DNA of 64,000 nucleotides. Source: Candidatus Omnitrophota bacterium (GTDB lineage Bacteria > Omnitrophota > Gorgyraeia > Pluralincolimonadales > Pluralincolimonadaceae). Position 1 is the stretch's first letter, and the number at the start of each line of letters is the position of its first letter. The position numbers were made by a program, and so were the translations under genes. Under the pieces are notes generated by a model, which saw nothing but the letters and a program-made list of their open reading frames with translations, was not told the DNA's origin and did not search any database. Positions 10,136 to 63,728 of this stretch are shown here, in pieces. The stretch covers positions 13,067-77,066 of the forward strand of contig JAQUPL010000008.1 of the NCBI GenBank assembly GCA_028716565.1. Direction: 5' to 3'.

Positions 10136-10169
10136 GCTAATCTTCTCCGATGGGTGGGTAATTTATAGT

Positions 10170-10210
10170 ATTATAGAGATAATGGCTTGCTATTTCAAGG
10201 ATTTTTGAGG
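10170..10210 (-). promoter_or_regulatory. sigma70-type promoter for carB (TTGAAA-17-TATAAT) with upstream A-tract; short copy of the window-wide repeat motif
   Basis: Minus-strand -10 TATAAT at 10175..10170 and -35 TTGAAA at 10198..10193, with a 17-bp spacer. Upstream is CCCTCAAAAATCC. Confidence 0.6.
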
Positions 10211-10229
10211 GCTGATTTCTTTCCGGTGA

Positions 10230-13645: not shown

Positions 13646-13685
13646 TTTTTCCCCTTCAATTATTTACCCGGTTTCGTTATATCCG

Positions 13686-15460: not shown

Positions 15461-15489
15461 ATTGTCATTATCTCCTTCGCGGTGGAAAT

Positions 15490-15530
15490 ATTATAAGGGT
15501 AATGTCTTACTATATCAAGGATTTTTGGGT
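15490..15530 (-). promoter_or_regulatory. sigma70-type promoter for gmd (TTGATA-17-TATAAT plus A-tract); short copy of the repeat motif
   Basis: -10 at 15495..15490, -35 at 15518..15513, then CCCAAAAATCC. Confidence 0.6.
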
Positions 15531-16342
15531 ATCGGGGATAACGGCATATCAAGTAATTTTCGCCACTTATCTTCCCACCCTGAATGATGTGTAGTGCCCT
15601 TGACTACCGTAATACTCTCATGTTTATCATCTCCGGTCTTACCGGCAAACGATTTCGCGACAGACGCCGGGATGGTCCTGTCGCCGGAGGCGACAAAATG
15701 GCGCTGTGGAATGGCCCTGATCTTGGCCGCGTAATCTATAGGATTCAGGGACCCGTTAAGCGGGCTTACTTTATTCCAATCACTGACAGCACTCCAATCC
15801 AAATTGCCGGCGATAGTACGTAAGCTTATGACGTCATCACGGCGCGCGGCGACAAGAACGGCCACTGCCCCTCCTCCCGAATACCCGACAAGCGATACCG
15901 ACCGCGCTCCGGCCATATCGCGCAAACGGCTGACCGCGAGATCCATATCTTTTATCACTTCGGGTGAAAAGCGTTTCGCCGTCCAGTATTTCGCGTCACA
16001 CTGCGAGGCGCCCAGGGAAACATATTGTCCGGGGCGCGCGAGATATGCAACATTCGGGGACGGGTCCAATGAAGCCAGCCGCATGACAAGGCGATCCGTC
16101 GGGGTGGGGTCGGAAGACGGGCGCGAACGGGATCTCCATGCCAAGCCGTCTCCCTCGATGTAGATTACGAGCGGCTCCCCCCTCCTGTTTATTGTAATGT
16201 ACGAAAGCAGCGTGAAATTGCGCCCGCGTATAAGATTTTTAGTGAACCCGTTATTTTTTTCCAGGAAAAAGGACTGAGCAGCGCAACCTGTCAGGCAAGA
16301 TACCAAAAACAGGGCCGCTAAAGGCCTTCTTATACTGAACAT
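15515..16342 (-). CDS. alpha/beta-hydrolase (esterase/dienelactone-hydrolase-like) lipoprotein
   Basis: Lipoprotein signal (LVSCLTGC), GYSGGG nucleophile elbow and a C-terminal His. Confidence 0.6.
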   Translation of the reverse strand: MFSIRRPLAALFLVSCLTGCAAQSFFLEKNNGFTKNLIRGRNFTLLSYITINRRGEPLVIYIEGDGLAWRSRSRPSSDPTPTDRLVMRLASLDPSPNVAYLARPGQYVSLGASQCDAKYWTAKRFSPEVIKDMDLAVSRLRDMAGARSVSLVGYSGGGAVAVLVAARRDDVISLRTIAGNLDWSAVSDWNKVSPLNGSLNPIDYAAKIRAIPQRHFVASGDRTIPASVAKSFAGKTGDDKHESITVVKGTTHHSGWEDKWRKLLDMPLSPIPKNP

Positions 16343-23733: not shown

Positions 23734-23826
23734 TAGGTCTCGTTTTCGGGAAAAACCGCGGAAGGGATAGAGATGCGGAAGGAAAAAAAAGTCAGAATGG
23801 AAAGGAATTTTCTCATTTTTGCATTG

Positions 23827-23870
23827 ATTATAGCGGAGATTATTTGTTAAATCAAGGATTTTTGGGGACT
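23827..23870 (-). promoter_or_regulatory. sigma70-type promoter for autotransporter 2 (TTGATT-17-TATAAT plus A-tract); short repeat-motif copy
   Basis: -10 at 23832..23827, -35 at 23855..23850, then CCCCAAAAATCC. Confidence 0.55.
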
Positions 23871-23900
23871 AGGCGGGGATCTCCGTTTTGTCCGGCCGTT

Positions 23901-32433: not shown

Positions 32434-32464
32434 AAATGTCCGCCCCTGCTAGAGGCGGACATTT
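32434..32464 (-). terminator. 11-bp-stem hairpin (AAATGTCCGCC / GGCGGACATTT, 9-nt loop) between the SYLF gene stop and the sod RBS
   Basis: Perfect inverted repeat, followed on the minus strand by UAUAUCU and then the SD AAAGGAGG of sod. Confidence 0.45.
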
Positions 32465-33793: not shown

Positions 33794-33825
33794 CCTTCTG
33801 TTCCTCCTTTTATTTAGCTGGTTTT

Positions 33826-33900
33826 ATTATAGGGGTAATGTCTTACTATATCAAGGATTTTCAGGGATCAGGGAGGGATTTACTCGCGGGATTTGAGGCC
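33826..33900 (-). promoter_or_regulatory. repeat-element copy carrying a TTGATA-17-TATAAT promoter for CBM paralog 1
   Basis: -10 at 33831..33826, -35 at 33854..33849. Flanking sequence is homologous to the copies at 36341, 39925 and 61192. Confidence 0.6.
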
Positions 33901-36313: not shown

Positions 36314-36340
36314 TGAAGCCTTAATCTCTTTCTCTCCTTA

Positions 36341-36385
36341 ATTAGCTGGTTTTATTATAGGTATAATATCTTGCTATATCAAGGA
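36341..36385 (-). promoter_or_regulatory. repeat-element copy carrying a TTGATA-17-TATAAT promoter for the LacI gene
   Basis: -10 at 36359..36354, -35 at 36382..36377. Confidence 0.6.
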
Positions 36386-36388
36386 TTT

Positions 36389-39025
36389 TTAGGGATTAAA
36401 GGCGGCATCTCCCTGCCGCGCCGCATACGCAAAGCGGGCCTGGAGCCGGATGTCGCGGGATGAACTGCCGACGAGGATGTCGAATTCGCCGGGTTCGGCG
36501 ACCCAACCCTTCGCCTCAGCGTCGTAGAACGCGAGGGCTCGCTCGTCCAAACGGAAGATGACCTGCTTCGTTTCGCCCGGGGCCAACTCCACCTTCTCGA
36601 ACCCCTTGAGCTCCTTCACTGGGCGGGGCAGGCGGGACTCGACATCGTGGACGTAGAGTTGCACGACTTCCTTGCCCTTGCGCTTGCCCGTGTTCGTGAT
36701 GTCCACGCGAGCGACAAGGGTCTTGGGGTCCACGTTCAGGTTGCTGTACTTGAATGTCGTGTAGGACAATCCGTGCCCGAACGGGAAAAGGGGTTCCACG
36801 TTCCGAGTGTCGTAGTAACGGTAGCCAACCAGCAGGCCCTCCTTGTACTCGCAGTCCTTATCGTTGTACTGCCCGATTGCGTGGGCAGGACAGTCCTCGA
36901 GCCGCTTGGGAAACGTGATCGGCAGCTTTCCGGAGGGGTTGATGTCACCGAATACGATGTCGGCCACGGTGTTTCCGACTTCCATGCCGGCGTACCACGC
37001 CTGGACCACGCAGGGCACTTTGTCGATCCACGGCATCTCGACGGCGCTGCCGGAGACCAGGAACACGGCGGTGCGCGGATTGGCCGCCGCGACTGCCTCG
37101 ATCAACTCGTTCTGCCGCCCGTGCAGCCGGATGTCGCGACGGTCCTCACCCTCCTTGTCGTACTGATGGTTCTGGCCCGCGAACACCAACACGGCATCGG
37201 CCGCGCGAGCCGCTTTGATCGCCTCGGCAAATTCGACTTCGGGGCCGACGCGGGAGTCCGGCCTAACCCAACCCAGTTTAACCATTGCATCGCCGCTGGA
37301 TTCGTAGTACTCCACCTCGAAGTGGTAGGTCTGGCCCGCGGTCAACTCGATCTTCGCGTCCTTACGTTCCTCGGCATGGTCGGCCCAGTTGTCGATCACC
37401 ACCTTGCCGTTGATCTTCAGCCTTGAACCGTCGTCGCTCGTAAGGCCCAAGTGATAGATCCCGCTGGCAGTCGGCAGGATATCGGCCGTCCACCGCGCGG
37501 AGAAGTTATCCTTGGGTACACCTGCGGCCGGACCCAGATCCTTCCAGTTAAAGTCCATGGCCTTCTCATACCGGATCTCGACCGGCTGACCGTTCAGATT
37601 ACGGTCGTTGAAGTACTCACCCTTCCAACTCCGGATGCCGGACTTGGGATCTGTGGTCTGCACATACGTGTCGCTGATCGCCTCGAAAACCGTGGTGTCG
37701 CCCGTGTCCCGGTAACCCTCCACGTACGTGATCTTAACCATTCCCCCGCCCTTGCGTTTCAGCCCCTCGAGCGGGGTGATCTCATAAAGCGCGCGGATCG
37801 CCGAACTGCCGCCTTGATTCGCATGCTGTATGACAGCGTTCTCGCCGATCACAGCGAGCTTCAGTGTCTTGTTAATGTCGAGCGGCAGGACGCCGTCGTT
37901 CTTCAGCAGCACCATCGCCTCGCCGGCGACATCCCGGACCGCCTGCTGGTTTGCGGCGGTATTGCGCGATCCGGTCTTGCGTGTCGATGGATCAATCATA
38001 CCGGCCCGGATCATGAAGCGGAGGATCCGCCGGACCTTGTCGTCGACGACGCTCTCCGGAATCTCCCCGCGCTCGACGGCCTGCCGAAGGGGATTCGCAA
38101 AGAAGAAGGTGTCGTAGTTGTCCGACGTGCCCATCTCTATATCGAGCCCGTTCACCGCGGCATCGCGCGTGCTGTGCGTTCCGCCCCAGTCCGAAATACA
38201 GACACCGTCGAACCCCCACGCCCCCTTGAGAATGTCGTTCATTAGGTACTTGTTCTCTCCGCACCACTGTCCCCGGAACTTGTTGTAGGAGGTCATTACC
38301 GTCCAGGCACCCGCGCGGACGGCCGCCTCGAACGCCGGCAGGTAAATTTCGCGCAGGGTGCGCTCGTCGGCCACCACGTTGACCCAGCCGCGGTTCCACT
38401 CCTGGTTGTTCAGCGCGTAGTGCTTCACGCACGCCGCCACATCGTTGCTCTGGATGCCGCGCACCACCTCGGACGCCATCTGGCCGACTTGGTACGGGTC
38501 CTCGCCGTAATACTCGAAATTGCGGCCACAGACTGGAGTGCGGACGATGTTGATGCCTGGGCCCAGGAGGATGTCCTTGTTACGATGACGCGCCTCCGCG
38601 CCCAATGTTTCGCCGAATCGGCGTCCCATTTCCCGATTCCAAGTCGACGCCAGCGCAGAGCCGGTCGGGAGATAGGTCACGTAGTCATCCTCCCACCCCG
38701 CAGGCTCCCAGGAGTTGGCGGCGGTTTCGCGCCGTACTCCGTGCGGGCCGTCAGACATCGCCACACGGGGAATCCCCAGCCGTTCGATCCCAGCGGTATT
38801 GAACTTCGAGTTGGCGTGGCAAAGCGAAAGCTTTTCGGCCAGCGACATCTGCTTCAGCAGGTCGTTGATGCGTGTTTCAATTGCCGGCACCGGCGCGAGG
38901 TTCTCAGCTTTGTCAATAGCGGTCGCGGCAACAGCTTGAGTTTCTGATTGAAAACCCTGGAGTCCGCCGCATGATATAGTGAATGTTACCAGAAGTGTGA
39001 CGAAAACGTACTTAAACATATTCAT
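36389..39025 (-). CDS. bglX: GH3 beta-glucosidase with inserted PA14 domain, lipoprotein/secreted
   Basis: GH3 N- and C-terminal domains (catalytic region around SDW), a PA14 segment (YHLGLTSDDGSRLKINGK) and a fibronectin-like C-terminus. Start MNMFKY at 39025 follows AAAGGAG. The gene is visibly more GC-rich than its neighbours. Confidence 0.85.
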   Translation of the reverse strand: MNMFKYVFVTLLVTFTISCGGLQGFQSETQAVAATAIDKAENLAPVPAIETRINDLLKQMSLAEKLSLCHANSKFNTAGIERLGIPRVAMSDGPHGVRRETAANSWEPAGWEDDYVTYLPTGSALASTWNREMGRRFGETLGAEARHRNKDILLGPGINIVRTPVCGRNFEYYGEDPYQVGQMASEVVRGIQSNDVAACVKHYALNNQEWNRGWVNVVADERTLREIYLPAFEAAVRAGAWTVMTSYNKFRGQWCGENKYLMNDILKGAWGFDGVCISDWGGTHSTRDAAVNGLDIEMGTSDNYDTFFFANPLRQAVERGEIPESVVDDKVRRILRFMIRAGMIDPSTRKTGSRNTAANQQAVRDVAGEAMVLLKNDGVLPLDINKTLKLAVIGENAVIQHANQGGSSAIRALYEITPLEGLKRKGGGMVKITYVEGYRDTGDTTVFEAISDTYVQTTDPKSGIRSWKGEYFNDRNLNGQPVEIRYEKAMDFNWKDLGPAAGVPKDNFSARWTADILPTASGIYHLGLTSDDGSRLKINGKVVIDNWADHAEERKDAKIELTAGQTYHFEVEYYESSGDAMVKLGWVRPDSRVGPEVEFAEAIKAARAADAVLVFAGQNHQYDKEGEDRRDIRLHGRQNELIEAVAAANPRTAVFLVSGSAVEMPWIDKVPCVVQAWYAGMEVGNTVADIVFGDINPSGKLPITFPKRLEDCPAHAIGQYNDKDCEYKEGLLVGYRYYDTRNVEPLFPFGHGLSYTTFKYSNLNVDPKTLVARVDITNTGKRKGKEVVQLYVHDVESRLPRPVKELKGFEKVELAPGETKQVIFRLDERALAFYDAEAKGWVAEPGEFDILVGSSSRDIRLQARFAYAARQGDAAFNP

Positions 39026-39886: not shown

Positions 39887-39924
39887 TATATCTTCCTTTC
39901 AGCCGAGGGGAAACCTTTCTAATT

Positions 39925-40010
39925 TAGCCGGTTTTATTATAAAGGTAATATTTTACCATATCAAGGATTATTGGGGATCAGGGAGGGATTTCCTTGCGGA
40001 ATTTGAGCAC
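39925..40010 (-). promoter_or_regulatory. repeat-element copy carrying a TTGATA-17-TATAAT promoter for the VIT gene
   Basis: -10 at 39941..39936, -35 at 39964..39959. The right end GGGGATCAGGGAGGGATTTCC is homologous to other copies. Confidence 0.6.
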
Positions 40011-40084
40011 CTTGAGCTTTTATCTGGCGAAATCCTGTGAAGCAGGACGTCCGTTTTGTCCGGGCATCGGCCGATCATTATATC

Positions 40085-40240: not shown

Positions 40241-40255
40241 AGATAAATACCTCCT

Positions 40256-40390: not shown

Positions 40391-40410
40391 ATATAGGTCC
40401 TCCTTATTAT

Positions 40411-41622: not shown

Positions 41623-41623
41623 A

Positions 41624-42295
41624 TCAGGCCGGCATCCTTCTCTTGATTATCCCGATCACTTTATCCCTTAAACCCTCCAGGGTAAAAGTATAAGGATCAA
41701 GCTGAGATATCTCCCTTGCCATCCGCTCATCGCCGACCGAATTCATTATCCAATTCGAAAAATCGTTCGTATTTTTTTCAAGCCTCAGGCGCGCCTCAAA
41801 GACGTGATAATAAATGGAATCTATGGTTATCTTATCTAAAATATCTATGAAATCCTTCAAATCATACGCTTCATATTTGGTCGGAAGCACGAAGCTTACC
41901 GACTTCACGAAATGGAATTCGTCGCCTTCCCCCGCGAACCTGATCTTTGCCGTCGGGTTCTCGGCCAGATACGACTCGATCACCTCGACCAGCTTCTCCC
42001 TTAAGCTGCGGATAGTATTAAACTGTATGACGTCTATGCTCGCCAGCTTCTCTCCTAACTCATCATCGCCCATTACCTCTGTCACCCAATACGCAAAATC
42101 GTTCGGCGGTTCCGGCGAAAGGTGCTGGTGCTGCTGCAGGAACCTGTGAGTATGGTGATATATGCAGGAACCGTTCACCACTTTCATAAGCTCGAGCAAT
42201 TGCCCTAAGGTCGAGGCCCTCAATCCGGTTAACTCGGAAAGATGCATCCTCGTATAGAATCTAAAGGATTCTCTTGCTTTCCGTATCTCTGCCAT
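41624..42295 (-). CDS. hypothetical protein conserved within the trehalose cluster (223 aa)
   Basis: No recognisable motifs. It is tightly packed between otsB and treT, with a 1-nt gap to treT. Confidence 0.45.
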   Translation of the reverse strand: MAEIRKARESFRFYTRMHLSELTGLRASTLGQLLELMKVVNGSCIYHHTHRFLQQHQHLSPEPPNDFAYWVTEVMGDDELGEKLASIDVIQFNTIRSLREKLVEVIESYLAENPTAKIRFAGEGDEFHFVKSVSFVLPTKYEAYDLKDFIDILDKITIDSIYYHVFEARLRLEKNTNDFSNWIMNSVGDERMAREISQLDPYTFTLEGLRDKVIGIIKRRMPA

Positions 42296-43097: not shown

Positions 43098-44149
43098 ATC
43101 CAGAAAACCGCTAAAAAATATCCCAGCATTAGTATGAGCCCTAAGGGTATCCCTAATCTGGCCCAAGCCCGGCTGGGGATATTTAGCTTTCCCGCTGCGA
43201 TGATATTAGGGATATTCCCGGGGATAAGCATCCCTCCTGAGACCAGCAAGCCCATAAGTATCGCCCGAATATGTCCTATATCCATCTTTGGCGTGATCTC
43301 GGCGGCGGTTAAGGTCGCGTTATCCAGAATAGCCGAAACGATGTTGAGCCAATACAGCCCTTTAGCCGACATCTGGACTACATAGGCGTCTATAATAGGC
43401 TTAAATCCCTTGCCTAAAAAAATCAAAGCCATCACAAAAAGATAAACTTTACCCGCGCGGATAAAAATGTCTTTTACTATCTCCGGCCTGTCTTCGGCTA
43501 AGGTCGTCTTTTCGGAGATTTTGGGTCTTATAAATGTGGCCAAAAAACCCAGGACCAGGATTCCCGGTAAAATATATAATCCCAGTAATTTCACCAAAAA
43601 CCAAAAATCGGCATTAAAAGGGGGCCCTTTCAATTTGGATATAGCGATCGTAGACAAAGGTTCGCCGATCGGAGTGAGGGCGGCTCCCAATCCTATGGAA
43701 AAACAGGCTATGACCACAAAATTAGTTTCGGTCTTTTTGTCAAATTTCATCCCGGTAACCAGTTCCACTAAAACCAAAGAAGCGATGATCGCAGTGATCG
43801 CGCTTGACATGACCCCCAATAATACCACGACCAAAAAGAATACCCATTTAACCCCTATTTGACGGATAACTTTACTAATTGTCGACCGTATGCGGTCCCT
43901 GACATAACGGAAGAGCAACCCGGCCACCAGTACCGCAACGCTGATCTTTATCGGCTCGACCAATGCCTCATAGACCAAATGTTTACTCCACAATTGAGAG
44001 ATCGTCACCGCCGATAAACCCATGACAAAAAGAAAAATCTCTAAATCCCGCTCTATTCTCTTTACCAGGAAAGGCAGGACAAATACCGTTACGATTATCC
44101 CGGCAAGCCCCCACATGATCCAGGCAGATAAGACTATTTTTTCGGTCAA
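43094..44149 (-). CDS. DUF1646-like polytopic membrane protein (predicted cation transporter)
   Basis: About 10 TM helices. The family assignment comes from general resemblance only. Confidence 0.4.
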   Translation of the reverse strand: MTEKIVLSAWIMWGLAGIIVTVFVLPFLVKRIERDLEIFLFVMGLSAVTISQLWSKHLVYEALVEPIKISVAVLVAGLLFRYVRDRIRSTISKVIRQIGVKWVFFLVVVLLGVMSSAITAIIASLVLVELVTGMKFDKKTETNFVVIACFSIGLGAALTPIGEPLSTIAISKLKGPPFNADFWFLVKLLGLYILPGILVLGFLATFIRPKISEKTTLAEDRPEIVKDIFIRAGKVYLFVMALIFLGKGFKPIIDAYVVQMSAKGLYWLNIVSAILDNATLTAAEITPKMDIGHIRAILMGLLVSGGMLIPGNIPNIIAAGKLNIPSRAWARLGIPLGLILMLGYFLAVFWI

Positions 44150-44173
44150 TTTATTCTCCCGGTGCGCCTATTT

Positions 44174-46408
44174 CTAACTTTTTTTCAGCGCCGTCAGTTC
44201 TGTAATTATATTGCCTGCCCAGCGGTACACGTTATTTTCTGTAACTATTTTACGCATGTTTTCCATGCGTTTTTTCCTCTCTTCGGCAGGCATTTCCACC
44301 GCAAATTTTATGGCGTCGGCGAATTCTTCTATAGAATAAGGATTTATCTGGACCGCGTCTGTCAGTTCCCTCGCGGCCCCCGTAAAACGGCTCAGGACCA
44401 AAACGCCGTCCAGATTCTTATTTGAGATAACATATTCCTTTGCTACCAGATTCATCCCGTCATGCAGGGAACTCACGATGCAAACATCCGCTAAAGCATA
44501 ATACGGCTTGATCTCTTCCGGAGAAAAATGCCTCTTTAAGTATATGATCGGTTTCCAGTTCCCGTCATAATGCTTCCAGTTGACTTTCTCGACCGCCTCA
44601 TCTATCTCCGCCATCAGGTCATGGTAGCGCTTTATATGGATCCTGCTTGGAGCTGCCAATTGAAGAAAAACAAACTTACCTTTATATTGAGGATATTTCT
44701 CCAAAAACCTGTCTATGGCGGACATCCTTTCTATTAGTCCCTTCGTGTAGTCGATCCTCTCCACCCCGACAGCGACTATCTTGCCTTCCAGCTCAAATTC
44801 CTTAGATAATTCGTCTATTTCAGCTAAATCCTGCTTAGTAGTCTCACCCATATAAGTATCTACGCTTATCGGGAAGGCGCGGACAAAAGTCTCTTTTCCG
44901 GCCCGTACTATGCTAAATTTTTCCGTGTCAACGCGGGATTCGAGAAGCCTGTTTGCAGTATCGAGAAAATTATTGCAGTGATATTGCACATGAAAACCTA
45001 TCAAATCACAAGCTAACATTCCATCCAGAATTTCTTTTTGATAGGGGCAGGTAGCGAATATCTCGGGATTCGGCCACGGTATATGCCAGAATAGCGCTAC
45101 GGTCGCGTTAGGTTGTTTTTCCTTTATCATCTTAGGAAGAAGCGTAAAATGATAATCCTGAATAAAGACAAGGGGATTTTTCGCGGGCAACTCTTCCAAG
45201 ACGGCGTCGGCAAATTTCTGGTTTACTTCCTTGTACATCTGCCAGTCGGACTCCCGAAATAGGGGCCGAGTATGGGTAATGTGACAAAGCGGCCATAATC
45301 CTTCATTGGAAAAACCATAGTAATAACCCTGCTCTTCCTCTTTTGTCAGCCAGACTCTTTTGAGAATATAACGGTTATCTTCAGGCGGAACGGCTAGTTT
45401 GTTCTTGGAGTTTACAAATTTTCTGTCCGCATTCCCGCTTCCGTGAGCGATCCATGTCCCGCCGCAAGCCTGCAATATGGGGTCTACGGCGGTAACAACG
45501 CCGCTTGCAGGCCTAATACACCTGGTTTCCCCGCTTGTGTCCTCGATGACATGCATATAAGGTTCCCTGTTTGAGACCACGCATAAAGCGTTTTCGCCTA
45601 ACTTGGCAAGGACAACGTTTCGGAGCTTTGCTTCTGTCCACAAATCCTCATTCTCTAAGCGAACTTGAGCTTCACCGGAGATTGTTTTACGCGCGATCCT
45701 TAAACTCAAAGCTATCTGCTCGACTTCACTGGCAAGTTTTCCAAACGCGCCTTTTTCTTTCGTTATCGGATGCTGTTTGTCTATCTCGCCTTTTTGAAAA
45801 AGATGGAACCACTCGGTAAGCTGGAGAACGGGCAAAATAAATATCCGCCTCTGCAGCAACACCATGATTAACGTGATAGATACGACCAAAATTATCAGGG
45901 CAGTGCTTACATGCCTCCATAGCTCCGTCAGCGTCGTAAAAACATACGAGGTATCGTAAACAACCTCTACCACACCCAAAACATTTTTTTCGTCATCCAG
46001 AACAGGAAGGACGTAGCTGTACACGGAATATTCCTTGAATTTTTCCAGCGCTCCGCGGGGATTTTTCGTCTCCAATGCTTCTTTAATATAAGGCTTGTCT
46101 TTCTGTCCCCAATCGGATATCCTGGAGGTGATCGACAATACTTTGCCATCCTTGTCGTAAATCACGCATCCCTGGAGCCTTTCTCTCTTTTGAAAGCTTT
46201 CCGTAAGACGGTTAGTCGATCTTAAGTCGTTGTTGATCAAAACGTACTTTACGGATAATTCGGTGCTTTCGGCAACAGTTTTTGCCTTTCTTTGAAGGTC
46301 ATCCATCAACTTGCCTTCTTCAAAATTAACTTGCACTATGCCGAATACCGTAAAGACCAAGGCAACGATGATCAGGATCGGTAAAATAAACAATAGTATT
46401 CGTCTCAT
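44174..46408 (-). CDS. otsA: membrane sensor-HAMP-OtsA fusion: TM1, roughly 140-aa extracytoplasmic domain, TM2, HAMP-like linker, then alpha,alpha-trehalose-phosphate synthase (GT20)
   Basis: Residues 1-190 carry two hydrophobic helices flanking a periplasmic-type domain. Residues 190-250 form an amphipathic HAMP-like segment. From about residue 330 there are classic OtsA motifs (GFSNEGLWPLCH, FIQDYHFTLLP, LHDGMNLVAKEY). Confidence 0.8.
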   Translation of the reverse strand: MRRILLFILPILIIVALVFTVFGIVQVNFEEGKLMDDLQRKAKTVAESTELSVKYVLINNDLRSTNRLTESFQKRERLQGCVIYDKDGKVLSITSRISDWGQKDKPYIKEALETKNPRGALEKFKEYSVYSYVLPVLDDEKNVLGVVEVVYDTSYVFTTLTELWRHVSTALIILVVSITLIMVLLQRRIFILPVLQLTEWFHLFQKGEIDKQHPITKEKGAFGKLASEVEQIALSLRIARKTISGEAQVRLENEDLWTEAKLRNVVLAKLGENALCVVSNREPYMHVIEDTSGETRCIRPASGVVTAVDPILQACGGTWIAHGSGNADRKFVNSKNKLAVPPEDNRYILKRVWLTKEEEQGYYYGFSNEGLWPLCHITHTRPLFRESDWQMYKEVNQKFADAVLEELPAKNPLVFIQDYHFTLLPKMIKEKQPNATVALFWHIPWPNPEIFATCPYQKEILDGMLACDLIGFHVQYHCNNFLDTANRLLESRVDTEKFSIVRAGKETFVRAFPISVDTYMGETTKQDLAEIDELSKEFELEGKIVAVGVERIDYTKGLIERMSAIDRFLEKYPQYKGKFVFLQLAAPSRIHIKRYHDLMAEIDEAVEKVNWKHYDGNWKPIIYLKRHFSPEEIKPYYALADVCIVSSLHDGMNLVAKEYVISNKNLDGVLVLSRFTGAARELTDAVQINPYSIEEFADAIKFAVEMPAEERKKRMENMRKIVTENNVYRWAGNIITELTALKKS

Positions 46409-46412
46409 ATGA

Positions 46413-47438
46413 TTATCCCTTCATTTCAATGCGTGTCCGCGGTAAACATTCGGGGAAGCGTCGTTGTAAAAACTCCACAAGATTTTCCCTGACTTCACAA
46501 CGTAAGTCCCACATAGCGGGAGAATCCGCTGCGCTCATAAGCGCCCGCAACTCGACTGTTTTGTCAGTTACATTGGTAACCTGCAGCGCATCGACCTTTT
46601 TATCCCACTTTGTGCTGTTTTTGAGAATACGCGTTAATTCATTACGGACTTCTTTCACGGGTACGGTGTAATCGGTATAGATAAGAACAGTTCCCAGTAA
46701 ATCTGCTGAAGTCCGCGTCCAATTCTGAAATGGTTTTTCGAGAAAATATGATATGGGGACTACCAAACGCCTCAGGTCCCAAATACGCACTACCACAAAA
46801 GTGAGGGTAATTTCCTCGATCCAGCCCCATTCATCCTCGATAATGACCACATCATCCAGCCTAATTGGCTGGGCAATGGCTATCTGAATGCCGGCGATGA
46901 GATTCCCCAGCGTTTTTTGCGCGGCAAAACCTATAACTACCCCGACAATTCCTGCCGAGGCCAATATGCTTACACCTATATGCCTGACTTGCGGGAAACT
47001 CATCAGCATAAAGGAAACGGTTAACAAAACTATGACCACGATCATGATATTGGCGATCACGCGCATTTGCGTATGCATACCACGAGCACGCACATTGTCC
47101 CGAACCGTGATATCATAACGGTTCAAAAACGCATCGCGAAGAATATAGACAATCTTAATAGCGACCCAACCAAACAACGCAATAAGCAGGATATAGATAA
47201 AATGGCCGATAAAGCCGCGCGCCTTTTCCGGTAGACGTAATAAAGGGATGACCCCCGCGATACATAAAGCTGGTATCAAAAAACGTAACGGACTTTTGAG
47301 AAGCCCCAGGTTGACCTTAAACAATTTTAAGGAAATAGTATCCCGCCGTTTAATTAAAAATGCAGCAAAAAAATAAATTATACAACCGACAATAAAGCTA
47401 GAGGCTATTAAAATGCCCGAAAACAAATAATCATTCAT
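46413..47438 (-). CDS. small-conductance mechanosensitive channel (MscS family)
   Basis: Three TM helices, then the conserved MscS beta-domain (GNLIAGIQIAIAQPIRLDDVV). Confidence 0.85.
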   Translation of the reverse strand: MNDYLFSGILIASSFIVGCIIYFFAAFLIKRRDTISLKLFKVNLGLLKSPLRFLIPALCIAGVIPLLRLPEKARGFIGHFIYILLIALFGWVAIKIVYILRDAFLNRYDITVRDNVRARGMHTQMRVIANIMIVVIVLLTVSFMLMSFPQVRHIGVSILASAGIVGVVIGFAAQKTLGNLIAGIQIAIAQPIRLDDVVIIEDEWGWIEEITLTFVVVRIWDLRRLVVPISYFLEKPFQNWTRTSADLLGTVLIYTDYTVPVKEVRNELTRILKNSTKWDKKVDALQVTNVTDKTVELRALMSAADSPAMWDLRCEVRENLVEFLQRRFPECLPRTRIEMKG

Positions 47439-47442
47439 GATT

Positions 47443-48897
47443 TTAAATCCTTTCTCGAGTCAGTCTGTCGAGGATCGCACGCAGCGATACCAGCCCGATA
47501 GTCGTCTGTTGGTCGTTTAACGCGTAAGGGATAATAAGCGTATCGCTATGGACCATTGCTCCGCACGAATAGACGACGTTCGGAACATACCCCGAACGAC
47601 TATTATCCTCCCAATGAATAAGCGGTTCGCTCAACCGGCCAATTACACGCGAAGGATCTTCGCGGTCAAGCAGGGCAGCGCTGATCGAATATTGGCGCAT
47701 CGGCCCGACGCCGTGGGTTAGGAGCAGCCACCCGCGGTCGGTCTCTATCGGAGAACCGCAATTCCCTATCTGCACGAACTCCCATGGATATAATGGACTC
47801 ATTAATGGAACGGCCTCATGCCAGAAATGGATATTATCGGAATACATAAGGAAAAGGTTCTCGTTATCGTTCCGGGAAACCATCGCGTAACGGCCATTTA
47901 TCTTGCGCCGGAACAAAGCCATCCCCTTATTGACCGCCGCCCTGCCGTTCAAGGTGATCATTTTAAAACGGATAAAATCTTCCGTCTCCATTATTTGCGG
48001 CAGGATAACCCTGCCGTCATACGCCGTATATGTGGCGTAATATTTCCCGCTTCCATCATCATTCTTAAAATATACGAAACGCGCATCCTCCATACCGTTC
48101 TGCTCGCTTGGAGAAAGCGGGAACAGGACGCGTTCTGAAAGCGGGAACTTCGGATCGAAAGTAGCTTCATAATTACATCGTGCCAGCCACAAGATCTTTT
48201 CGCAGGTAAGTTTGTCTGTCTGGGTTATCGGATGATGGCCTGCAGTGTAATCCCTGACCTTCTCTTCCAGCTGCTCCATGGTAAACTTTTCCGGTAACGG
48301 GTCCGTAATGTATTTTGAGCAGTTATTCTCCAGCCCCATTTCATAGAGTTTTCCGATGAAACACATCTTATCATAAAGAGCGCTCGGTTTCGGTTCGGCG
48401 GTACACGCGAGACCGGAAGTTTTGTCAATCGATACAGTTCCATATTTGTCTATGAGCCCCGAACGGAACACTAATGTAGATATCTGCCCCTCGCCTGTGG
48501 CGCGCAAAGAAATAATAAAACGCAGGGATCCTTCGGAAACCCCGGATTGGTCGGGATGCGCTACAATAGAAGGATTGAAGAGACCCGTTGATTCATATGA
48601 ACGCTCGCCGATGAAGTACGCTCCTATGAGAAGCCTGCGCGTTTTAGAGGGTGCAAAATCGGGAGGCATATATGCGCAGATGACCTCGAACTGGCGCTCA
48701 AGGATAGAATCAAAATTATGGTGTCGCGCTGAAAAATCCCGTACGGTCTTCTTCAATTCTTCTTCCGCGGCGGACTCGTCAAGAGCCATAATGCGCGAGA
48801 CGATCCCCGGGACGCGTGATTGATTCCCTGGAATGTACGGCCTGATGATGACGCGCCCGCTATCAGGGGCGATGACTATACCGGTATTCTTTATCAT
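47443..48897 (-). CDS. two-domain protein: unknown roughly 250-aa N-terminal domain plus GH130-family (beta-propeller glycoside phosphorylase/transferase-like) C-terminal domain
   Basis: C-terminal DARFVYF ... YYATYTAYDG and further GH130-like motifs. Confidence 0.6.
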   Translation of the reverse strand: MIKNTGIVIAPDSGRVIIRPYIPGNQSRVPGIVSRIMALDESAAEEELKKTVRDFSARHHNFDSILERQFEVICAYMPPDFAPSKTRRLLIGAYFIGERSYESTGLFNPSIVAHPDQSGVSEGSLRFIISLRATGEGQISTLVFRSGLIDKYGTVSIDKTSGLACTAEPKPSALYDKMCFIGKLYEMGLENNCSKYITDPLPEKFTMEQLEEKVRDYTAGHHPITQTDKLTCEKILWLARCNYEATFDPKFPLSERVLFPLSPSEQNGMEDARFVYFKNDDGSGKYYATYTAYDGRVILPQIMETEDFIRFKMITLNGRAAVNKGMALFRRKINGRYAMVSRNDNENLFLMYSDNIHFWHEAVPLMSPLYPWEFVQIGNCGSPIETDRGWLLLTHGVGPMRQYSISAALLDREDPSRVIGRLSEPLIHWEDNSRSGYVPNVVYSCGAMVHSDTLIIPYALNDQQTTIGLVSLRAILDRLTRERI

Positions 48898-51173: not shown

Positions 51174-51237
51174 CTTGTCTATCTCCGGCTACAAATAAAG
51201 AACCATCTGATTTTTCGTCAGATGGCGGCCCGACCAT
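51163..51237 (-). promoter_or_regulatory. leader ORF (24 aa, SD GGAGGA) spanning a terminator-like hairpin (CCATCTGA-7 nt-TCAGATGG plus U-tract, 51193-51225) and ending inside the GT4 start: candidate attenuator
   Basis: Hairpin stem at 51203-51210 and 51218-51225. The U-tract UUCUUUAUUUGU follows on the minus strand, and the GT4 SD GGAGAU and ATG come immediately after. Leader ATG at 51237, stop TGA at 51165..51163. Confidence 0.4.
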
Positions 51238-51354
51238 CAAAAATCCTCCGAAAATATGTTTTCTATTCTCGGACCCTTTTAATTACTTCATAAGTATAAC
51301 ATATTTTTTTTGAAAAACAACCTTTAATCGCGGCGTGGACGGAAGAAATAAAGG

Positions 51355-52698: not shown

Positions 52699-52852
52699 CT
52701 TATCATGCCGCCCTATTTTGCTAATTTATTATTCCAAAAAACATGACCGAACCCCAAACAATACCTAATGCCAAACCGGATACCTCCAAATCTTGCTATG
52801 CCATGGCAATCTTTCTTTCCATTGGCCAAGAAATTCTATATACAGGTATTAA

Positions 52853-52879
52853 TTATAGTCCCGATGCGGGGATTATCAA
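52853..52879 (-). promoter_or_regulatory. TTGATA-16-TATAAT promoter (repeat-motif core) embedded in the 3' end of the thioredoxin-like gene, oriented toward the ClC gene (roughly 150-nt leader)
   Basis: -10 at 52858..52853. The -35 at 52879..52874 overlaps the trx-like stop codon. Confidence 0.45.
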
Positions 52880-53118
52880 GGGAATTTAACCAGGATTTTC
52901 TTTATTTCTTCCTTGCTCAATACCTTGCCAGCTGATACCACAGCACCATCTACCGCCAAAGCAGGTGTCGTCATTACGCCATATTCTACAATCTTTCCGA
53001 TATCTGACATTTTAGAGATCTCTGCGGAAATGTTTAGCTCTTTTACCGCTGCCTCGGCGTTTGCCGTAAGCTGTTTGCACTTCGGACAACCCATGCCTAA
53101 AATTTCTATTTTCATCAT
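52876..53118 (-). CDS. thioredoxin-family small redox protein (redox-active disulfide protein 2-like)
   Basis: 80 aa with a CPKC active site (GMGCPKCK). Confidence 0.7.
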   Translation of the reverse strand: MMKIEILGMGCPKCKQLTANAEAAVKELNISAEISKMSDIGKIVEYGVMTTPALAVDGAVVSAGKVLSKEEIKKILVKFP

Positions 53119-54402: not shown

Positions 54403-54451
54403 TTATGAACATATGTTCATAATAATTTTAACATATTATTTTATTTCGTCA
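54403..54451 (-). promoter_or_regulatory. promoter (TTGACG-16-TAAAAT) with 18-bp perfect palindrome TATGAACATATGTTCATA (54404-54421) over the transcription start of the DUF134-permease-trx operon
   Basis: -35 at 54451..54446, -10 at 54429..54424. The palindrome core ATGAAC....GTTCAT matches the TetR operators at 29791 and 30517. Confidence 0.55.
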
Positions 54452-54507
54452 ATGAAAATTTAATAAGAAATTGGATTATACTATATCAAGGATTTTTGGG
54501 ACGTGAC

Positions 54508-60228: not shown

Positions 60229-60255
60229 TAAAAAAGCGGCCCGTTTCCGAGCCGC
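60229..60255 (-). terminator. strong intrinsic terminator (GCGGCUCG-GAAA-CGGGCCGC followed by U6) 18 nt upstream of the aspD start codon
   Basis: 8-bp stem with a GNRA tetraloop at 60236..60255, and an A6 run on the plus strand at 60230..60235. Confidence 0.6.
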
Positions 60256-60256
60256 C

Positions 60257-60289
60257 TTAAAATTTATACTTCTTTTTTATCCCCTCCAT
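60257..60289 (-). CDS. 10-aa leader peptide MEGIKKKYKF (candidate attenuation leader)
   Basis: ATG at 60289 preceded by GAGAGGAAG. The UAA stop lies 1 nt before the terminator stem. Confidence 0.35.
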   Translation of the reverse strand: MEGIKKKYKF

Positions 60290-60315
60290 CGCGCTTCCTC
60301 TCTATAAGCGAATTC

Positions 60316-60344
60316 AATATATCTTAAACGTAGAAAATTGTCAA
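60316..60344 (-). promoter_or_regulatory. sigma70-type promoter for the aspD leader (TTGACA-17-TATATT)
   Basis: -35 at 60344..60339, -10 at 60321..60316. Confidence 0.5.
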
Positions 60345-60491: not shown

Positions 60492-60803
60492 TTACGCCCC
60501 TGCATACTTTGCTCTCTTACGCTTTCTTGCAGCTACTGCTACCATTACCCCCCATATTAGGAAAATGGACAGGGTCATCGGAACGCCAACCCTCAACATT
60601 TCCGGGAAGACTTCGGTAAGGCCAGCGGTCAGGAATGGCGGATAAAGAACAATTTCTCCGTGGGAGATATGTTCGACTGCTAACATTACCACTCCTCCCC
60701 ACAACATCGAATTTAACCAATTGAAATGGTATTTTTCACTAGCTTTTTTCCCTACAGTAGTTGTCACTATTGCCGCGGCCGCTGGGACAAGAAAACAAGC
60801 CAT
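60492..60803 (-). CDS. small integral membrane protein (103 aa, 3 TM), paralog of the next gene
   Basis: Shared pattern with 60807-61085 (..LWGG.VM.L.EHI.HGE..), hydrophobic helices and a basic C-terminus. Confidence 0.4.
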   Translation of the reverse strand: MACFLVPAAAAIVTTTVGKKASEKYHFNWLNSMLWGGVVMLAVEHISHGEIVLYPPFLTAGLTEVFPEMLRVGVPMTLSIFLIWGVMVAVAARKRKRAKYAGA

Positions 60804-60806
60804 CGG

Positions 60807-61085
60807 TTACCTCCTTTTTAAGTTTGAGATTAGAAGTAAAATTCCCCAGGTCATAAACACAGGCGCCAACATTGCTATTCCTAACATAACACCATTTTTG
60901 ATCATTCCGTCTGTAGTCTTCTCCAAAAACGCTCCGCCTTCATATCCTAATATATGGTCGGTAAGAATCATTGCTGCCGCTCCCCAGAGCATTAAAGCTA
61001 GAAAACCTAACTTGTAATCCTTGGGTAAAACAAACTTACCTAAAGTCGCGCCCGCTGCCGCGATAGAAGTCGTTACTAACCACAT
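60807..61085 (-). CDS. small integral membrane protein (92 aa, 3 TM), paralog
   Basis: See above. It is preceded by the full-length repeat element carrying a promoter. Confidence 0.4.
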   Translation of the reverse strand: MWLVTTSIAAAGATLGKFVLPKDYKLGFLALMLWGAAAMILTDHILGYEGGAFLEKTTDGMIKNGVMLGIAMLAPVFMTWGILLLISNLKRR

Positions 61086-61153
61086 CTCTTGCCTCCTCTC
61101 ATTTTTTTAAACTTCCTTGTCTTATAATAGGACTAAATAACTGATTATATTTT

Positions 61154-61263
61154 GGGGTCCCTCTCCTGTTTCATGAGGGAAACCTCTCTTATTTAGCTGG
61201 TTTTATTATAAAGGTAATATTTTACCATATCAAGGATTATTGGGGATCGGAGAGGGATTCCCC
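61154..61263 (-). repeat. full-length roughly 110-bp repeat element with imperfect terminal inverted repeats (GGGGTCCCTCTCC ... GGAGAGGGATTCCCC) and an internal TTGATA-17-TATAAT promoter (-10 at 61210..61205, -35 at 61233..61228)
   Basis: Homologous to copies at 33826-33900, 36341-36385, 39900-40010 and 63631-63700, plus shorter core copies at 10170, 15490, 23827, 52853 and 54483. Confidence 0.6.
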
Positions 61264-61423
61264 TGCGGAATCGATATTAAACTTTCGCATATTGTGTAAA
61301 AGCGCGTCCCGGTCACCAAAAGTATCAAAAAGCACATCTTGGTTGATTAAAAATGAGACGCCCCACATACGGATAAAACGCTCCCATTTTGTTGAACCAA
61401 CTGCAATAACTTGTACTTGCAAA

Positions 61424-63579: not shown

Positions 63580-63630
63580 ATCCTTTTGAGCCTGTTTACT
63601 TAGAACCGCACGGTATAAGTATTATACCTT

Positions 63631-63700
63631 GGGATCCCTCTCCTATTAGCCGAGGGGAAACCTCTCGCATATGCAGATATGGATTATAGCCCAAATACAG
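63631..63700 (-). promoter_or_regulatory. repeat-element copy with a TTGATA-16-TATAAT promoter for zupT
   Basis: Left terminal repeat GGGATCCCTCTCC at 63631-63643 and the conserved leader TAGCCGAGGGGAAACCTCTC. Confidence 0.55.
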
Positions 63701-63728
63701 GGATTATCAAGGAAATTTAGCCGGTCGA

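What the first reader, a model, noticed from the sequence alone, without database searches (positions are those of the whole stretch)
61154..61263. Family of promoter-bearing repeat elements (roughly 60-110 bp) with MITE-like inverted termini driving many minus-strand genes
At least 5 long copies lie at 33826-33900, 36341-36385, 39900-40010, 61154-61263 and 63631-63700. Short core copies lie at 10170-10210, 15490-15530, 23827-23870, 52853-52879 and 54483-54500. All share CCCCAAAAATCC-TTGATA-17 bp-TATAAT-AAAACCAGCTAA. The long ones additionally share a roughly 30-nt transcribed leader (GAGAGGTTTCCCCTCGGCTAA) and an upstream GGGGATCAGGGAGGGATT block. The copy at 61154-61263 is bounded by imperfect inverted repeats (GGGGTCCCTCTCC / GGAGAGGGATTCCCC). 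Homology that extends beyond the -35 and -10 hexamers argues for dissemination of a portable promoter cassette rather than convergent promoter evolution. The conserved leader may bind a common post-transcriptional regulator.
Basis: seen in the sequence. Interest (0 to 1): 0.7.

Follow-up and report, generated by a model that had tools for sequence, protein, structure and literature searches.

The report
Dispersed modular promoter cassette in Omnitrophota
About ten intergenic regions of this uncultivated Omnitrophota genome carry copies of one homologous promoter-plus-leader cassette, which appears to have been copied and reshuffled by recombination, not by transposition.

Summary
Seven complete promoters, a truncated fragment and a -10 remnant on the minus strand share homology far beyond the hexamers: CCCCAAAAATCC-TTGATA-17 nt-TATAAT, often followed by AAAACCAGCTAAAT. 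Two more promoters belong to a second subfamily. No shuffle of the window reproduces these matches. Related copies occur in many Omnitrophota MAGs, always upstream of functionally unrelated genes and pointing towards them.

The element is larger and more modular than reported. Its modules are a standard terminator, a CGGACA-N-CGGACA block, a GAGGAAATCCCTCTC block, the core promoter, a GAGAGGTTTCCCCTC...GAGAGGGACCCC leader, and sometimes a second hairpin plus a terminator.

Modules are gained and lost independently at orthologous sites. The copy at 61154-61263 is a recent acquisition. In nine loci from relatives its downstream genes sit in a nikR(-oprB) operon with no element. It shares a 50-nt identical run with the copy at about 39900-40010.

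The MITE reading is not supported. I found no target-site duplications, no terminal inverted repeats at the true ends and no clean empty sites. The "inverted termini" are two internal modules.

Best reading: a mobile-promoter-like family of sigma-70-type cassettes, spread and reshuffled by recombination. Leader function is unresolved, because covariation is inconclusive.

The parts
61146..61312 (-). Copy 61, the fullest unit in the window. It has a degenerate CGGAC block (about 61312-61275), the U1 block GGGGAATCCCTCTCCGATCCCC (61263-61242) and the A-tract AATAATCC (61241-61234). The -35 TTGATA is at 61233-61228 and the -10 TATAAT at 61210-61205. The predicted start of transcription is about 61198. 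The leader arms are GGTTTCCCTC (61184-61175) and GAGAGGGACC (61165-61156). It drives the 92-aa and 103-aa membrane protein genes (61085-60492).
39895..40063 (-). Copy 39. It has U2 CCGGACAAAACGGAC (40063-40049), an extra block AGGATTTCGCC..GGTGCT, and U1. The -35 is at 39964-39959 and the -10 at 39941-39936. The leader is cut off inside the hairpin loop, where its purine run serves as the Shine-Dalgarno site of the VIT1 gene (ATG at 39886).
33807..33896 (-). Copy 33. It has U1 plus the core (-35 at 33854-33849, -10 at 33831-33826) plus AAAACCAGCTAAAT, followed directly by the Shine-Dalgarno site, with no leader hairpin. It drives a 183-aa secreted protein gene. An orthologous copy is present in L025 (94% identical).
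36325..36396 (-). Copy 36. Core only (-35 at 36382-36377, -10 at 36359-36354) plus the AAAACCAGCTAA block. The stop codon of the upstream GH3 gene lies inside the TAATCCC part of the element. It drives a LacI-family regulator gene.
63625..63722 (-). Copy 63. A subfamily-2 promoter (TTGATA at 63710-63705, 16-nt spacer, TATAAT at 63688-63683) joined to the family leader (63672-63625). It drives a ZIP metal transporter gene.
   Evidence: (D16)
52838..52891 (-). Copy 52. A subfamily-2 promoter (TTGATA at 52879-52874, TATAAT at 52857-52852) upstream of a CLC channel gene.
   Evidence: (D16)
23820..23898 (-). Copy 23. It has a U2 remnant (CCGGACAAAACGGAG) plus a core with a diverged spacer (-35 TTGATT at 23855-23850, -10 at 23832-23827). 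It drives an autotransporter gene. Orthologous copies are present in L175 and L043.
15483..15541 (-). Copy 15. Core only (-35 at 15518-15513, -10 at 15495-15490). The stop codon of the upstream ORF is the TGA inside TTGATA. It drives the GDP-mannose dehydratase operon. The orthologous copy in L175 is about 95% identical.
10166..10226 (-). Copy 10. Core only (-35 TTGAAA at 10198-10193, -10 at 10175-10170), lying between the DEAD helicase gene and carB. It is orthologous in L175. In more distant relatives carB sits inside operons with 21-35 nt gaps and no element.
54479..54501 (-). Fragment 54. CCCAAAAATCCTTGATATAGTA, truncated in the spacer. It lies between the oprB stop codon and the DUF134 gene's own promoter, at a synteny breakpoint relative to L018.
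13657..13681 (-). Remnant 13. TATAACGAAACCGGGTAAATAATTG, the -10/+1 part of the element, abutting the stop codon of the GT2 gene. The same gene has a full core in L025, and a core plus leader in L160, L065 and L181.
32437..32461 (-). The standard terminator module TGTCCGCC-N9-GGCGGACA(TTTT), after the Ysc84-like gene. In relatives the same hairpin forms the 5' end of complete units.

Best explanation
The sites are members of one homologous family of sigma-70-type promoter cassettes. They serve as general-purpose promoters for unrelated genes in a clade of Candidatus Omnitrophota.

A complete unit is about 165-270 nt and is built from modules. In order, these are:
- a standard intrinsic terminator, ATGTCCGCC..GGCGGACATTTT;
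- AGTTACGCCATTTCCAGYCAAAAAWT;
- a direct repeat, CCGGACA-N3-CGGACAAAT;
- GCGAGGAAATCCCTCTCTAATCCCC;
- an A-tract abutting the -35 hexamer;
- TTGATA-17 nt-TATAAT;
- a short 5' untranslated region, AAAACCAGCTAAAT;
- then either a Shine-Dalgarno site directly, or a leader GAGAGGTTTCCCCTC-loop-GAGAGGGACCCC.

Shown: the sequence homology; the position and orientation next to genes; the independent presence or absence of modules at orthologous sites; one recent acquisition (copy 61); and synteny breaks at or inside units.

Inferred: RNA polymerase with the housekeeping sigma factor starts transcription about 7 nt after TATAAT (about 61198 in copy 61). The terminator module insulates the unit from upstream transcription. 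The family spreads and is reshuffled by homologous or illegitimate recombination (segmental copying, gene conversion) between dispersed co-oriented copies, not by a transposase. This would give relocated genes a ready-made promoter.
For: Homology beyond the hexamers:
- Pattern matches are far above chance.
- The consensus and information profile over 79 positions come from 30 copies.
- Family members use TTGATA, whereas the other good promoters in the window use TTGACA/TTGACG.

Promoter role:
- Family or subfamily sites are the only 11-12/12 matches to TTGATA (or TTGACA)/TATAAT, and they fall in 9 of 26 intergenic gaps; a tenth gap holds only the truncated fragment 54.
- For 26 of 33 copies an automatic scan found a same-strand ORF with a Shine-Dalgarno-like site within about 320 nt downstream. 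No copy was seen pointing away from the adjacent gene.

Not a single regulon: downstream genes are heterogeneous. They include carB, GDP-mannose dehydratase, an autotransporter, LacI, VIT1, ZIP and CLC, plus proteins read by eye, not scanned, as catalase-peroxidase-, P-type ATPase- and pyruvate kinase-like, and proteins with signal-peptide-like N-termini.

Distribution:
- 33 core copies in 168 kb of close relatives.
- 44 unit matches in total, some of them reverse-strand self-matches or second pieces of the same copy.
- The same architecture, with a diverged core, in distant relatives L166, L171 and L172.

Modularity: the ortholog set of gene w13280-13645 shows a remnant, a core only, a core plus leader, and a core plus leader plus extra sequence.

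Recent acquisition:
- In nine loci from relatives the 92/103-aa gene pair follows nikR-oprB, or nikR alone, with 21-102 nt gaps and no element. This includes L174, which is 93.6% identical at the nucleotide level.
- In the window the pair follows the NifX-like gene plus the unit.
- Copies 61 and 39 share 50 identical bases in a row and are 93% identical over 95 nt (D8, 84).

Paralogs versus orthologs: non-orthologous copies in different genomes reach 91-94% identity. The copies at the orthologous position w39/L012_1292 are 73% identical, against 81% (BLAST; by eye about 85-90%) for the upstream flank. The pair w23/L043_4085 is 65% (ungapped), against 82%.

Vertical stability: copies 10, 15 and 23 are orthologous in L175, at roughly 88-95% identity (estimated by eye), like their flanks.

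Synteny breaks at units.
Against: - No transcription data exist, so promoter activity and start sites are inferred from sequence only.
- No whole genome of the source was available. The density (about one unit per 6-7 kb) comes from this window and a few unbiased loci.
- Recombination as the spreading mechanism is inferred from ragged boundaries and mosaicism. No recombination intermediate was seen.
- The strong conservation of U2, U1 and the leader across distant relatives suggests these modules are bound by specific factors. This explanation leaves that unspecified.
- Nearly all genes lie on one strand, so co-orientation of the units with genes is weak evidence by itself.
Confidence: 0.6

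Rival explanations
1. A non-autonomous transposon (MITE, Correia-like). The unit is bounded by terminal inverted repeats, inserts with a target-site duplication, and is mobilised in trans by a transposase encoded elsewhere.
For: - A 9-nt perfect inverted repeat flanks the promoter of copy 61.
- Many relatives carry both arms.
- The element is small, non-coding, multi-copy and intergenic.
- Copy 61 is absent from the corresponding place in relatives.
- Correia elements also carry sigma-70-like promoters (PMC10969869).
Against: - The inverted-repeat arms are internal, not terminal. Homology continues 50-150 nt beyond the upstream arm.
- The arms occur independently. Copies 33 and 39 lack the downstream arm. 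Copy 63 and L160_3088 lack the upstream arm.
- No direct repeats flank any copy.
- All presence/absence cases involve changed flanks or truncated units.
- No transposase or integrase is encoded in the window.
- All 33 core copies (nhmmer) lie upstream of, and point towards, the adjacent genes. None was found inside a gene body or in reverse orientation, although a few overlap the last codons of the upstream ORF.
Confidence: 0.08
2. A regulon signature. The conserved blocks are binding sites for a global transcription factor: the CGGACA direct repeat, the GAGG..CCTC palindromes at about -70 and +15, and the GTAA-N4-TTAC motif in the spacer. The leader would be the target of an RNA-binding regulator. 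Similarity would then be maintained by selection for common regulation, not by copying.
For: - U2, U1 and the leader are the best-conserved parts in distant relatives, while the core spacer diverges.
- AATCC recurs at 10-11 nt intervals upstream of the -35 hexamer.
- Several downstream genes are metal-related or envelope-related. These include VIT1, ZIP, the pair from the nikR operon, an EamA gene next to nikR, and a MipA gene close to fur.
Against: - Downstream genes overall are functionally heterogeneous.
- Orthologous genes gain and lose the modules freely.
- The spacer palindrome shows no correlated changes (read by eye).
- Selection on binding sites alone does not explain 50-nt identical runs, or the conservation of non-site positions in 91-94% identical paralogs.
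- This explanation is not exclusive of copying.
Confidence: 0.17
3. The core entity is a small RNA or cis-acting leader RNA. A conserved RNA of about 115 nt (hairpin 1, hairpin 2, terminator) has a promoter and first hairpin that were co-opted as mRNA leaders. The hairpin would act as an attenuator, a stabiliser or a Shine-Dalgarno/anti-Shine-Dalgarno switch.
For: - Promoter-hairpin-hairpin-terminator loci exist in L018, L012 and L036, and in diverged form in L166. Their folding z-scores are -2.8 to -4.0.
- These copies are the closest to the family consensus.
- In L172 the hairpin is followed directly by T8.
- A covariance model finds 23 leaders in 335 kb.
- The leader contains two GAGAGG motifs and one CCCCTC motif, which could pair in alternative ways (sequence).
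Against: - The leader hairpin alone folds no better than shuffled sequence (z -1.2 to -1.4).
- RNAalifold gives -2 kcal/mol with no compensatory pair.
- The proposed 9-pair stem is 88-89% paired but does not beat the shuffles. Three compensatory cells are reached by 42-48 of 500 shuffles.
- There is no Rfam family.
- Most window copies lack the leader altogether.
Confidence: 0.12
4. An invertible promoter (phase-variable inverton). A site-specific recombinase flips the roughly 80-nt promoter segment between the CCCTCTC and GAGAGGG repeats.
For: Inverted repeats flank the -35/-10 region in copy 61 and in many relatives.
Against: - All copies, in the window and in about 20 independent assemblies, are in the same orientation relative to U2, the leader and the downstream gene. 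The only reverse-strand matches are weak self-matches caused by the repeat symmetry.
- The segment is very short for recombinase synapsis (own knowledge).
- No recombinase gene is present in the window.
- Many functional-looking copies lack one arm.
Confidence: 0.03

Closest known systems
Putative mobile promoters (PMPs; Matus-Garcia, Nijveen & van Passel 2012, PMC3488235)
   Same: Both are homologous stretches of at least 50 nt and at least 80% identity, immediately upstream of non-homologous genes and with non-homologous upstream neighbours. Both are found within a genome and shared between related genomes. Neither is explained by known IS elements or riboswitches.
   Different: PMP is a descriptive category with no defined anatomy. 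Here the unit has a resolved modular architecture (terminator, upstream blocks, promoter, leader). It has a high local density of about one per 6-7 kb. Its architecture is conserved in distant members of the phylum. Omnitrophota genomes did not turn up in any paper on this topic in my searches.
Correia repeat-enclosed elements (Neisseria MITEs) and other promoter-bearing MITEs (PMC10969869)
   Same: Both are small, abundant intergenic repeats that supply sigma-70-like promoters to adjacent genes and can add a hairpin to the 5' untranslated region.
   Different: Correia elements have true terminal inverted repeats and behave as transposon-like insertions. The present units have no terminal repeats, no duplications and no clean empty sites. 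Their promoter is single, central and always co-oriented with the gene.
Mosaic intergenic repeats (BIME/REP of enterobacteria; SPRITE terminator-like repeats of pneumococcus)
   Same: Both are intergenic and are built from a small vocabulary of short motifs combined in variable arrangements. Both include a repeated 'standard' terminator hairpin.
   Different: BIME, REP and SPRITE mostly lie downstream of genes and do not carry a consensus promoter (own knowledge). No REP-type palindrome or RAYT gene was examined here.

Membership tests
Sigma-70-type bacterial promoter | -35 and -10 hexamers close to TTGACA/TATAAT, 16-18 nt apart | tested here: met
   TTGATA-17-TATAAT scores 11-12 of 12 in copies 10, 15, 23, 33, 36, 39 and 61. 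Copies 52 and 63 have a 16-nt spacer.
Sigma-70-type bacterial promoter | Located upstream of a gene, pointing towards it, within a plausible 5' untranslated region | tested here: met
   For 26 of 33 copies an automatic scan found a same-strand ORF with a Shine-Dalgarno-like site within about 320 nt. No copy points away from the adjacent gene. All window copies lie in intergenic gaps.
Sigma-70-type bacterial promoter | Experimentally mapped transcription start | not testable with these tools
   No transcriptome data are available.
Putative mobile promoter (PMC3488235) | Upstream regions align over more than 50 nt at 80% identity or better | tested here: met
   Copies 39 and 61 are 93% identical over 95 nt. 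Copies 33 and 36 are 85% identical over 72 nt.
Putative mobile promoter (PMC3488235) | Downstream and upstream coding sequences are not homologous | tested here: met
   Pfam assignments of the flanking genes all differ.
MITE | Terminal inverted repeats at the ends of the element | tested here: not met
   The only inverted repeat is internal (U1 against the leader). It is missing from most window copies. Homology runs beyond it.
MITE | Target-site duplication flanking the insertion | tested here: not met
   No direct repeats were seen by eye at the borders of any copy.
MITE | Precise empty sites in related genomes | tested here: not met
   Presence/absence differences always come with changed flanks or truncated units.
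MITE | Parent IS element with the same ends, encoding a transposase | not testable with these tools
   None is present in the 64-kb window. The rest of the genome was not available.
Invertible promoter (inverton) | Both orientations of the promoter segment observed | tested here: not met
   All copies, in the window and in about 20 assemblies, have one orientation.
Any Rfam cis-regulatory or sRNA family | Covariance-model match at the gathering score | tested here: not met
   There is no match at the element, in the window or in eight relatives' loci. Permissive scans give only noise.
Structured leader RNA (new family) | Base pairs supported by compensatory changes | tested here: inconclusive
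   88-89% of cells are paired. Three compensatory cells are matched by 42-48 of 500 shuffles.

The most novel reading that the evidence does not exclude
Omnitrophota carry a standardised, recombination-portable 'terminator-promoter-leader' expression cassette. Its master copy would be a conserved gene for a small RNA of about 115 nt. Recombination between the dispersed, co-oriented cassettes would shuffle gene blocks while always leaving each block with a working promoter. The conserved CGGACA and GAGAGG/CCTCTC blocks would be read by dedicated DNA-binding or RNA-binding factors that give genome-wide control.
Probability: 0.18. Interest if true: 0.65.

Novelty: new variant of a known kind. Interest (0 to 1): 0.45.

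Why it matters
Nothing is known experimentally about transcription signals in Omnitrophota, a widespread uncultivated phylum. This family offers three things.

- It gives a concrete, testable promoter, 5' untranslated region and terminator vocabulary for annotation and for heterologous expression.
- It is an unusually clear natural example of promoter reuse. A gene pair that left a nikR operon acquired a copy of a resident promoter.
- It may explain the heavy gene-order shuffling seen between genomes that are about 90% identical.

If the conserved flanking blocks prove to be factor-binding sites, they would define a large regulatory network in these organisms.

Tried and rejected
- **Rfam.** I scanned the window, the element and eight relatives' loci at gathering and permissive thresholds. 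Nothing matched at the element.
- **Viral contigs.** Neither the leader nor the core was found, so there is no phage link.
- **DNA-uptake-sequence idea for CGGACA.** The hexamer is not over-represented in the window: 26 copies against about 31 expected.
- **Palindromic operator in the spacer.** The bases flanking TAA..TTA do not co-vary across 30 copies (read by eye).
- **Concerted evolution within genomes as a general rule.** Mean identity is 0.64 between same-genome pairs and 0.62 between different-genome pairs. Only the 39/61 pair stands out.
- **Pairing of U1 with the leader across the promoter.** RNAalifold predicts it, but the columns are invariant, so it is uninformative.
- **Small ORF in the leader.** An ATG is present in copy 61 only and is not conserved (sequence).
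- **Search for a clean empty site.** I used three protein searches and 11 contig look-ups. I found only rearrangement-associated differences.

Full report
**1. The observation**

On the minus strand of the window, the sequence at 61154-61263 contains TTGATA (61233-61228), a 17-nt spacer and TATAAT (61210-61205). Upstream lies GGGGAATCCCTCTCCGATCCCCAATAATCC. Downstream lies AAAACCAGCTAAATAAGAGAGGTTTCCCTCATGAAACAGGAGAGGGACCCC.

The shared sequence is far beyond chance:
- A 44-nt degenerate core pattern finds 4 sites, against 0 in 100 shuffles.
- TATAATAAAACCRGCTAA finds 5, against 0.12 expected.
- AATCCTTGATA finds 9, against 1.35 expected.
- The repeat finder independently returns families of 72, 57, 95 and 26 nt.

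Some details need correcting:
- Sites 52 and 63 are a second promoter subfamily.
- Site 54 is a truncated fragment.
- A further -10/+1 remnant lies at 13664-13681.

**2. Genomic setting**

The window is an ordinary chromosomal stretch of a diderm bacterium. Almost all genes are on the minus strand. The genes downstream of the copies are unrelated to each other. They are carB, GDP-mannose dehydratase, an autotransporter, a small secreted protein, a LacI regulator, VIT1, a CLC channel, a 92/103-aa membrane protein pair and a ZIP transporter. No transposase or integrase is encoded in the window.

I surveyed 26 intergenic gaps. Family or subfamily sites are the only 11-12/12 matches to TTGATA (or TTGACA)/TATAAT, and they fall in nine gaps. 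A tenth gap holds only the truncated fragment 54. The remaining good promoters use TTGACA or TTGACG, not TTGATA. This argues for shared descent rather than convergence on the consensus.

**3. Relatives**

A pattern scan of species-representative genomes found the same extended element in eleven Candidatus Omnitrophota MAGs, one of them binned as Chloroflexi. The metagenome scan added eight members.

Several of these genomes are 87-91% identical to the window in coding DNA, but their gene order is heavily rearranged.

A profile of the core finds 33 copies in 168 kb of such DNA. A profile of the whole unit gives 44 matches, some of them reverse-strand self-matches or second pieces of the same copy. 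For 26 of the 33 core copies, an automatic scan finds a same-strand ORF with a Shine-Dalgarno-like site within about 320 nt downstream. No copy points away from the adjacent gene.

Downstream genes in relatives are again heterogeneous. Read by eye, not scanned, they include catalase-peroxidase-, P-type ATPase- and pyruvate kinase-like proteins, TPR-like proteins and many proteins with signal-peptide-like N-termini. A single functional regulon is therefore unlikely.

**4. Anatomy**

Aligning complete units shows a modular structure. In order, the modules are:
- a repeated 'standard' terminator, ATGTCCGCC-N5-9-GGCGGACATTTT;
- AGTTACGCCATTTCCAGYCAAAAAWT;
- CCGGACA-N3-CGGACAAAT (U2);
- an optional 45-nt block;
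- GCGAGGAAATCCCTCTCTAATCCCC (U1);
- the A-tract and core promoter;
- AAAACCAGCTAAAT;
- then either the Shine-Dalgarno site directly, or the leader GAGAGGTTTCCCCTC-loop-GAGAGGGACCCC.

In L018, L012 and L036, and in diverged form in L166, the leader is followed by a second CTCTCC/GGAGAG hairpin and an intrinsic terminator. The result looks like an sRNA of about 115 nt.

More distant relatives are only 77-82% identical even in conserved genes. They lack the clade-specific core, but they keep the same architecture with a diverged -35/spacer (L166, L171, L172).

Unit density is about one per 6-7 kb in the window and in its closest relative, L175. In the distant genomes it is roughly one per 20-50 kb.

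**5. Is it a MITE?**

However, its arms are U1 and the 3' half of the leader. Both are internal modules that occur independently. Copies 33 and 39 lack the downstream arm. Copy 63 and L160_3088 lack the upstream arm.

Homology continues well beyond the upstream arm. I saw no flanking direct repeats.

The defining features of a MITE were therefore tested and not met: terminal inverted repeats, a target-site duplication and clean empty sites (as described in PMC10969869). An inverton is also unsupported, because every copy, in the window and in about 20 assemblies, has the same orientation.

**6. Evidence on how it spreads**

(a) *Gene w13280-13645.* This gene has only the -10/+1 remnant in the window and in L175, abutting the stop codon of a glycosyltransferase gene. 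It has a core without leader in L025. It has a core plus leader in L160 and L181, and a core plus leader plus about 110 nt in L065. Modules are therefore gained and lost independently.

(b) *The 92/103-aa pair downstream of copy 61.* In nine loci from relatives this pair follows nikR-oprB, or nikR alone, with gaps of 21-102 nt and no element. This includes L174, which is 93.6% identical at the nucleotide level. In the window, homology to those loci stops at the Shine-Dalgarno site. Copy 61 is thus a recent acquisition that accompanied relocation of the genes.

(c) *Copies 61 and 39.* They share 50 identical bases in a row and are 93% identical over 95 nt. Their spacer variant, TGGTAAAATATTACCTT, was seen in no other copy. 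This indicates recent copying or conversion within this lineage.

(d) *The spacer downstream of the NifX-like gene.* It carries a different unit variant and a different downstream gene in three genomes. A 22/24-nt relic lies after the unit in the window, but right after the stop codon in L178.

(e) *Fragment 54 and copy 39.* Both lie at synteny breakpoints.

(f) *Paralogs versus orthologs.* Non-orthologous copies in different genomes reach 91-94% identity. The copies at the orthologous position w39/L012_1292 are 73% identical, against 81% (BLAST; by eye about 85-90%) for the upstream flank. The pair w23/L043_4085 is 65% (ungapped), against 82% for its flanks. Other orthologous copies (10, 15 and 23 against L175) simply track their flanks, at roughly 88-95% by eye.

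Taken together, these results fit a family that is mostly inherited vertically, with occasional segmental copying and exchange between copies. The breakpoints are ragged. This is the pattern expected from homologous or illegitimate recombination, and not from transposition. The mechanism itself is inferred, not observed.

**7. The leader**

No Rfam family matches.

A stem of 9-11 pairs can form, but the hairpin alone folds no better than shuffled sequence (z -1.2 to -1.4). RNAalifold finds no compensatory pair. My stem is 88-89% paired, but it does not exceed the shuffles. Three compensatory cells are matched by 42-48 of 500 shuffles.

The conservation is therefore at the sequence level. The motifs are two GAGAGG, one CCCCTC, and a CCTCTC in U1. 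Their function is open. They could be a protein-binding site, a stabiliser, an attenuator (T-runs follow the hairpin in a few copies) or a Shine-Dalgarno/anti-Shine-Dalgarno switch.

**8. Comparison with known systems**

The family meets the operational definition of putative mobile promoters (PMC3488235): alignments of more than 50 nt at 80% identity or better, upstream of non-homologous genes, with non-homologous upstream neighbours.

It works like the promoter-bearing Correia elements of Neisseria, but it fails the MITE membership tests. Its mosaic make-up and its standard terminator recall BIME/REP and SPRITE repeats.

I found no paper describing such elements, or promoters in general, in Omnitrophota.

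**9. Verdict**

The 'portable promoter' idea is supported in spirit. The MITE anatomy is not supported.

This is a new variant of a known kind. It is of moderate interest, mainly as the first defined transcription-signal vocabulary for Omnitrophota and as a clear natural case of promoter reuse linked to gene-order shuffling.

Noticed in passing
window 51220-51276 (-): An nhaA-I riboswitch (Rfam RF03057, 53 bits against a gathering score of 37). It lies upstream of a cluster of glycosyltransferase, GH130, MscS, trehalose-phosphate synthase, DUF1646, trehalose phosphatase, DUF5752 and TreT genes. This is an ion-sensing RNA in front of osmolyte genes rather than a cation transporter.
   Followed up: no
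window 40403-47465: A block of about 7 kb (MscS, trehalose-P synthase, DUF1646, phosphatase, DUF5752, TreT) is absent from relatives L012 and L041/L181. There the GH130 gene is followed directly by the small ORFs seen at 40087-40402.
   Followed up: partly
window 60492-61085; loci L164-L174: The 92-aa and 103-aa membrane protein pair is highly conserved (425 homologues). In nine loci from relatives it is the tail of a nikR-oprB operon, or follows nikR alone, suggesting a role in nickel or metal uptake. In the window the pair is detached from that operon.
   Followed up: yes
window 54405-54460 (-); L018 about 560-620: The DUF134 gene has its own TTGACG-16 nt-TAAAAT promoter, followed by a perfect 16-nt palindrome ATGAACATATGTTCAT. 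A slightly different, equally palindromic version (ATGCACATATGTGCAT) occupies the same place in a relative. It is likely an autoregulatory operator.
   Followed up: no
window 32437-32461; L018, L043 (two copies), L070, L106, L166, L171, L172: The same terminator hairpin, TGTCCRCC-N-GGYGGACA followed by T's, recurs after unrelated genes in many genomes. It is a dispersed 'standard terminator' and also forms the 5' end of complete units.
   Followed up: partly
L018 about 975-1094 (-), L012 4512-4630 (+), L036 about 2265-2378 (-), L166 about 5640-5790 (+): A conserved sRNA-like locus consisting of the family promoter, two hairpins, an intrinsic terminator and then GTTAAAGNCTTAGGGC (diverged in L036 and L166). 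The three loci folded (L018, L012, L036) have z-scores of -2.8 to -4.0. There is no Rfam match. It is absent from the window.
   Followed up: partly
window 16367-20830 (-): A 1487-aa autotransporter-like gene with internal repeats of 150-300 nt, paralogous to the neighbouring 951-aa autotransporter. It is absent from the closest relative, L175.
   Followed up: no
window 60233-60344 (-): A TTGACA-17-TATATT promoter is followed by a strong terminator-like hairpin (11 pairs plus a T-run), about 20 nt before the start of a 529-aa aminotransferase-domain gene. It may be an attenuator or an unrecognised leader.
   Followed up: no
window 33263-33562 and 34693-34992: Two paralogous genes for small proteins (183 and 197 aa; the 183-aa one has a signal-peptide-like N-terminus) are 86% identical over 300 nt and flank a PEP-CTERM protein gene. 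Relative L043 carries three copies in a different order.
   Followed up: no
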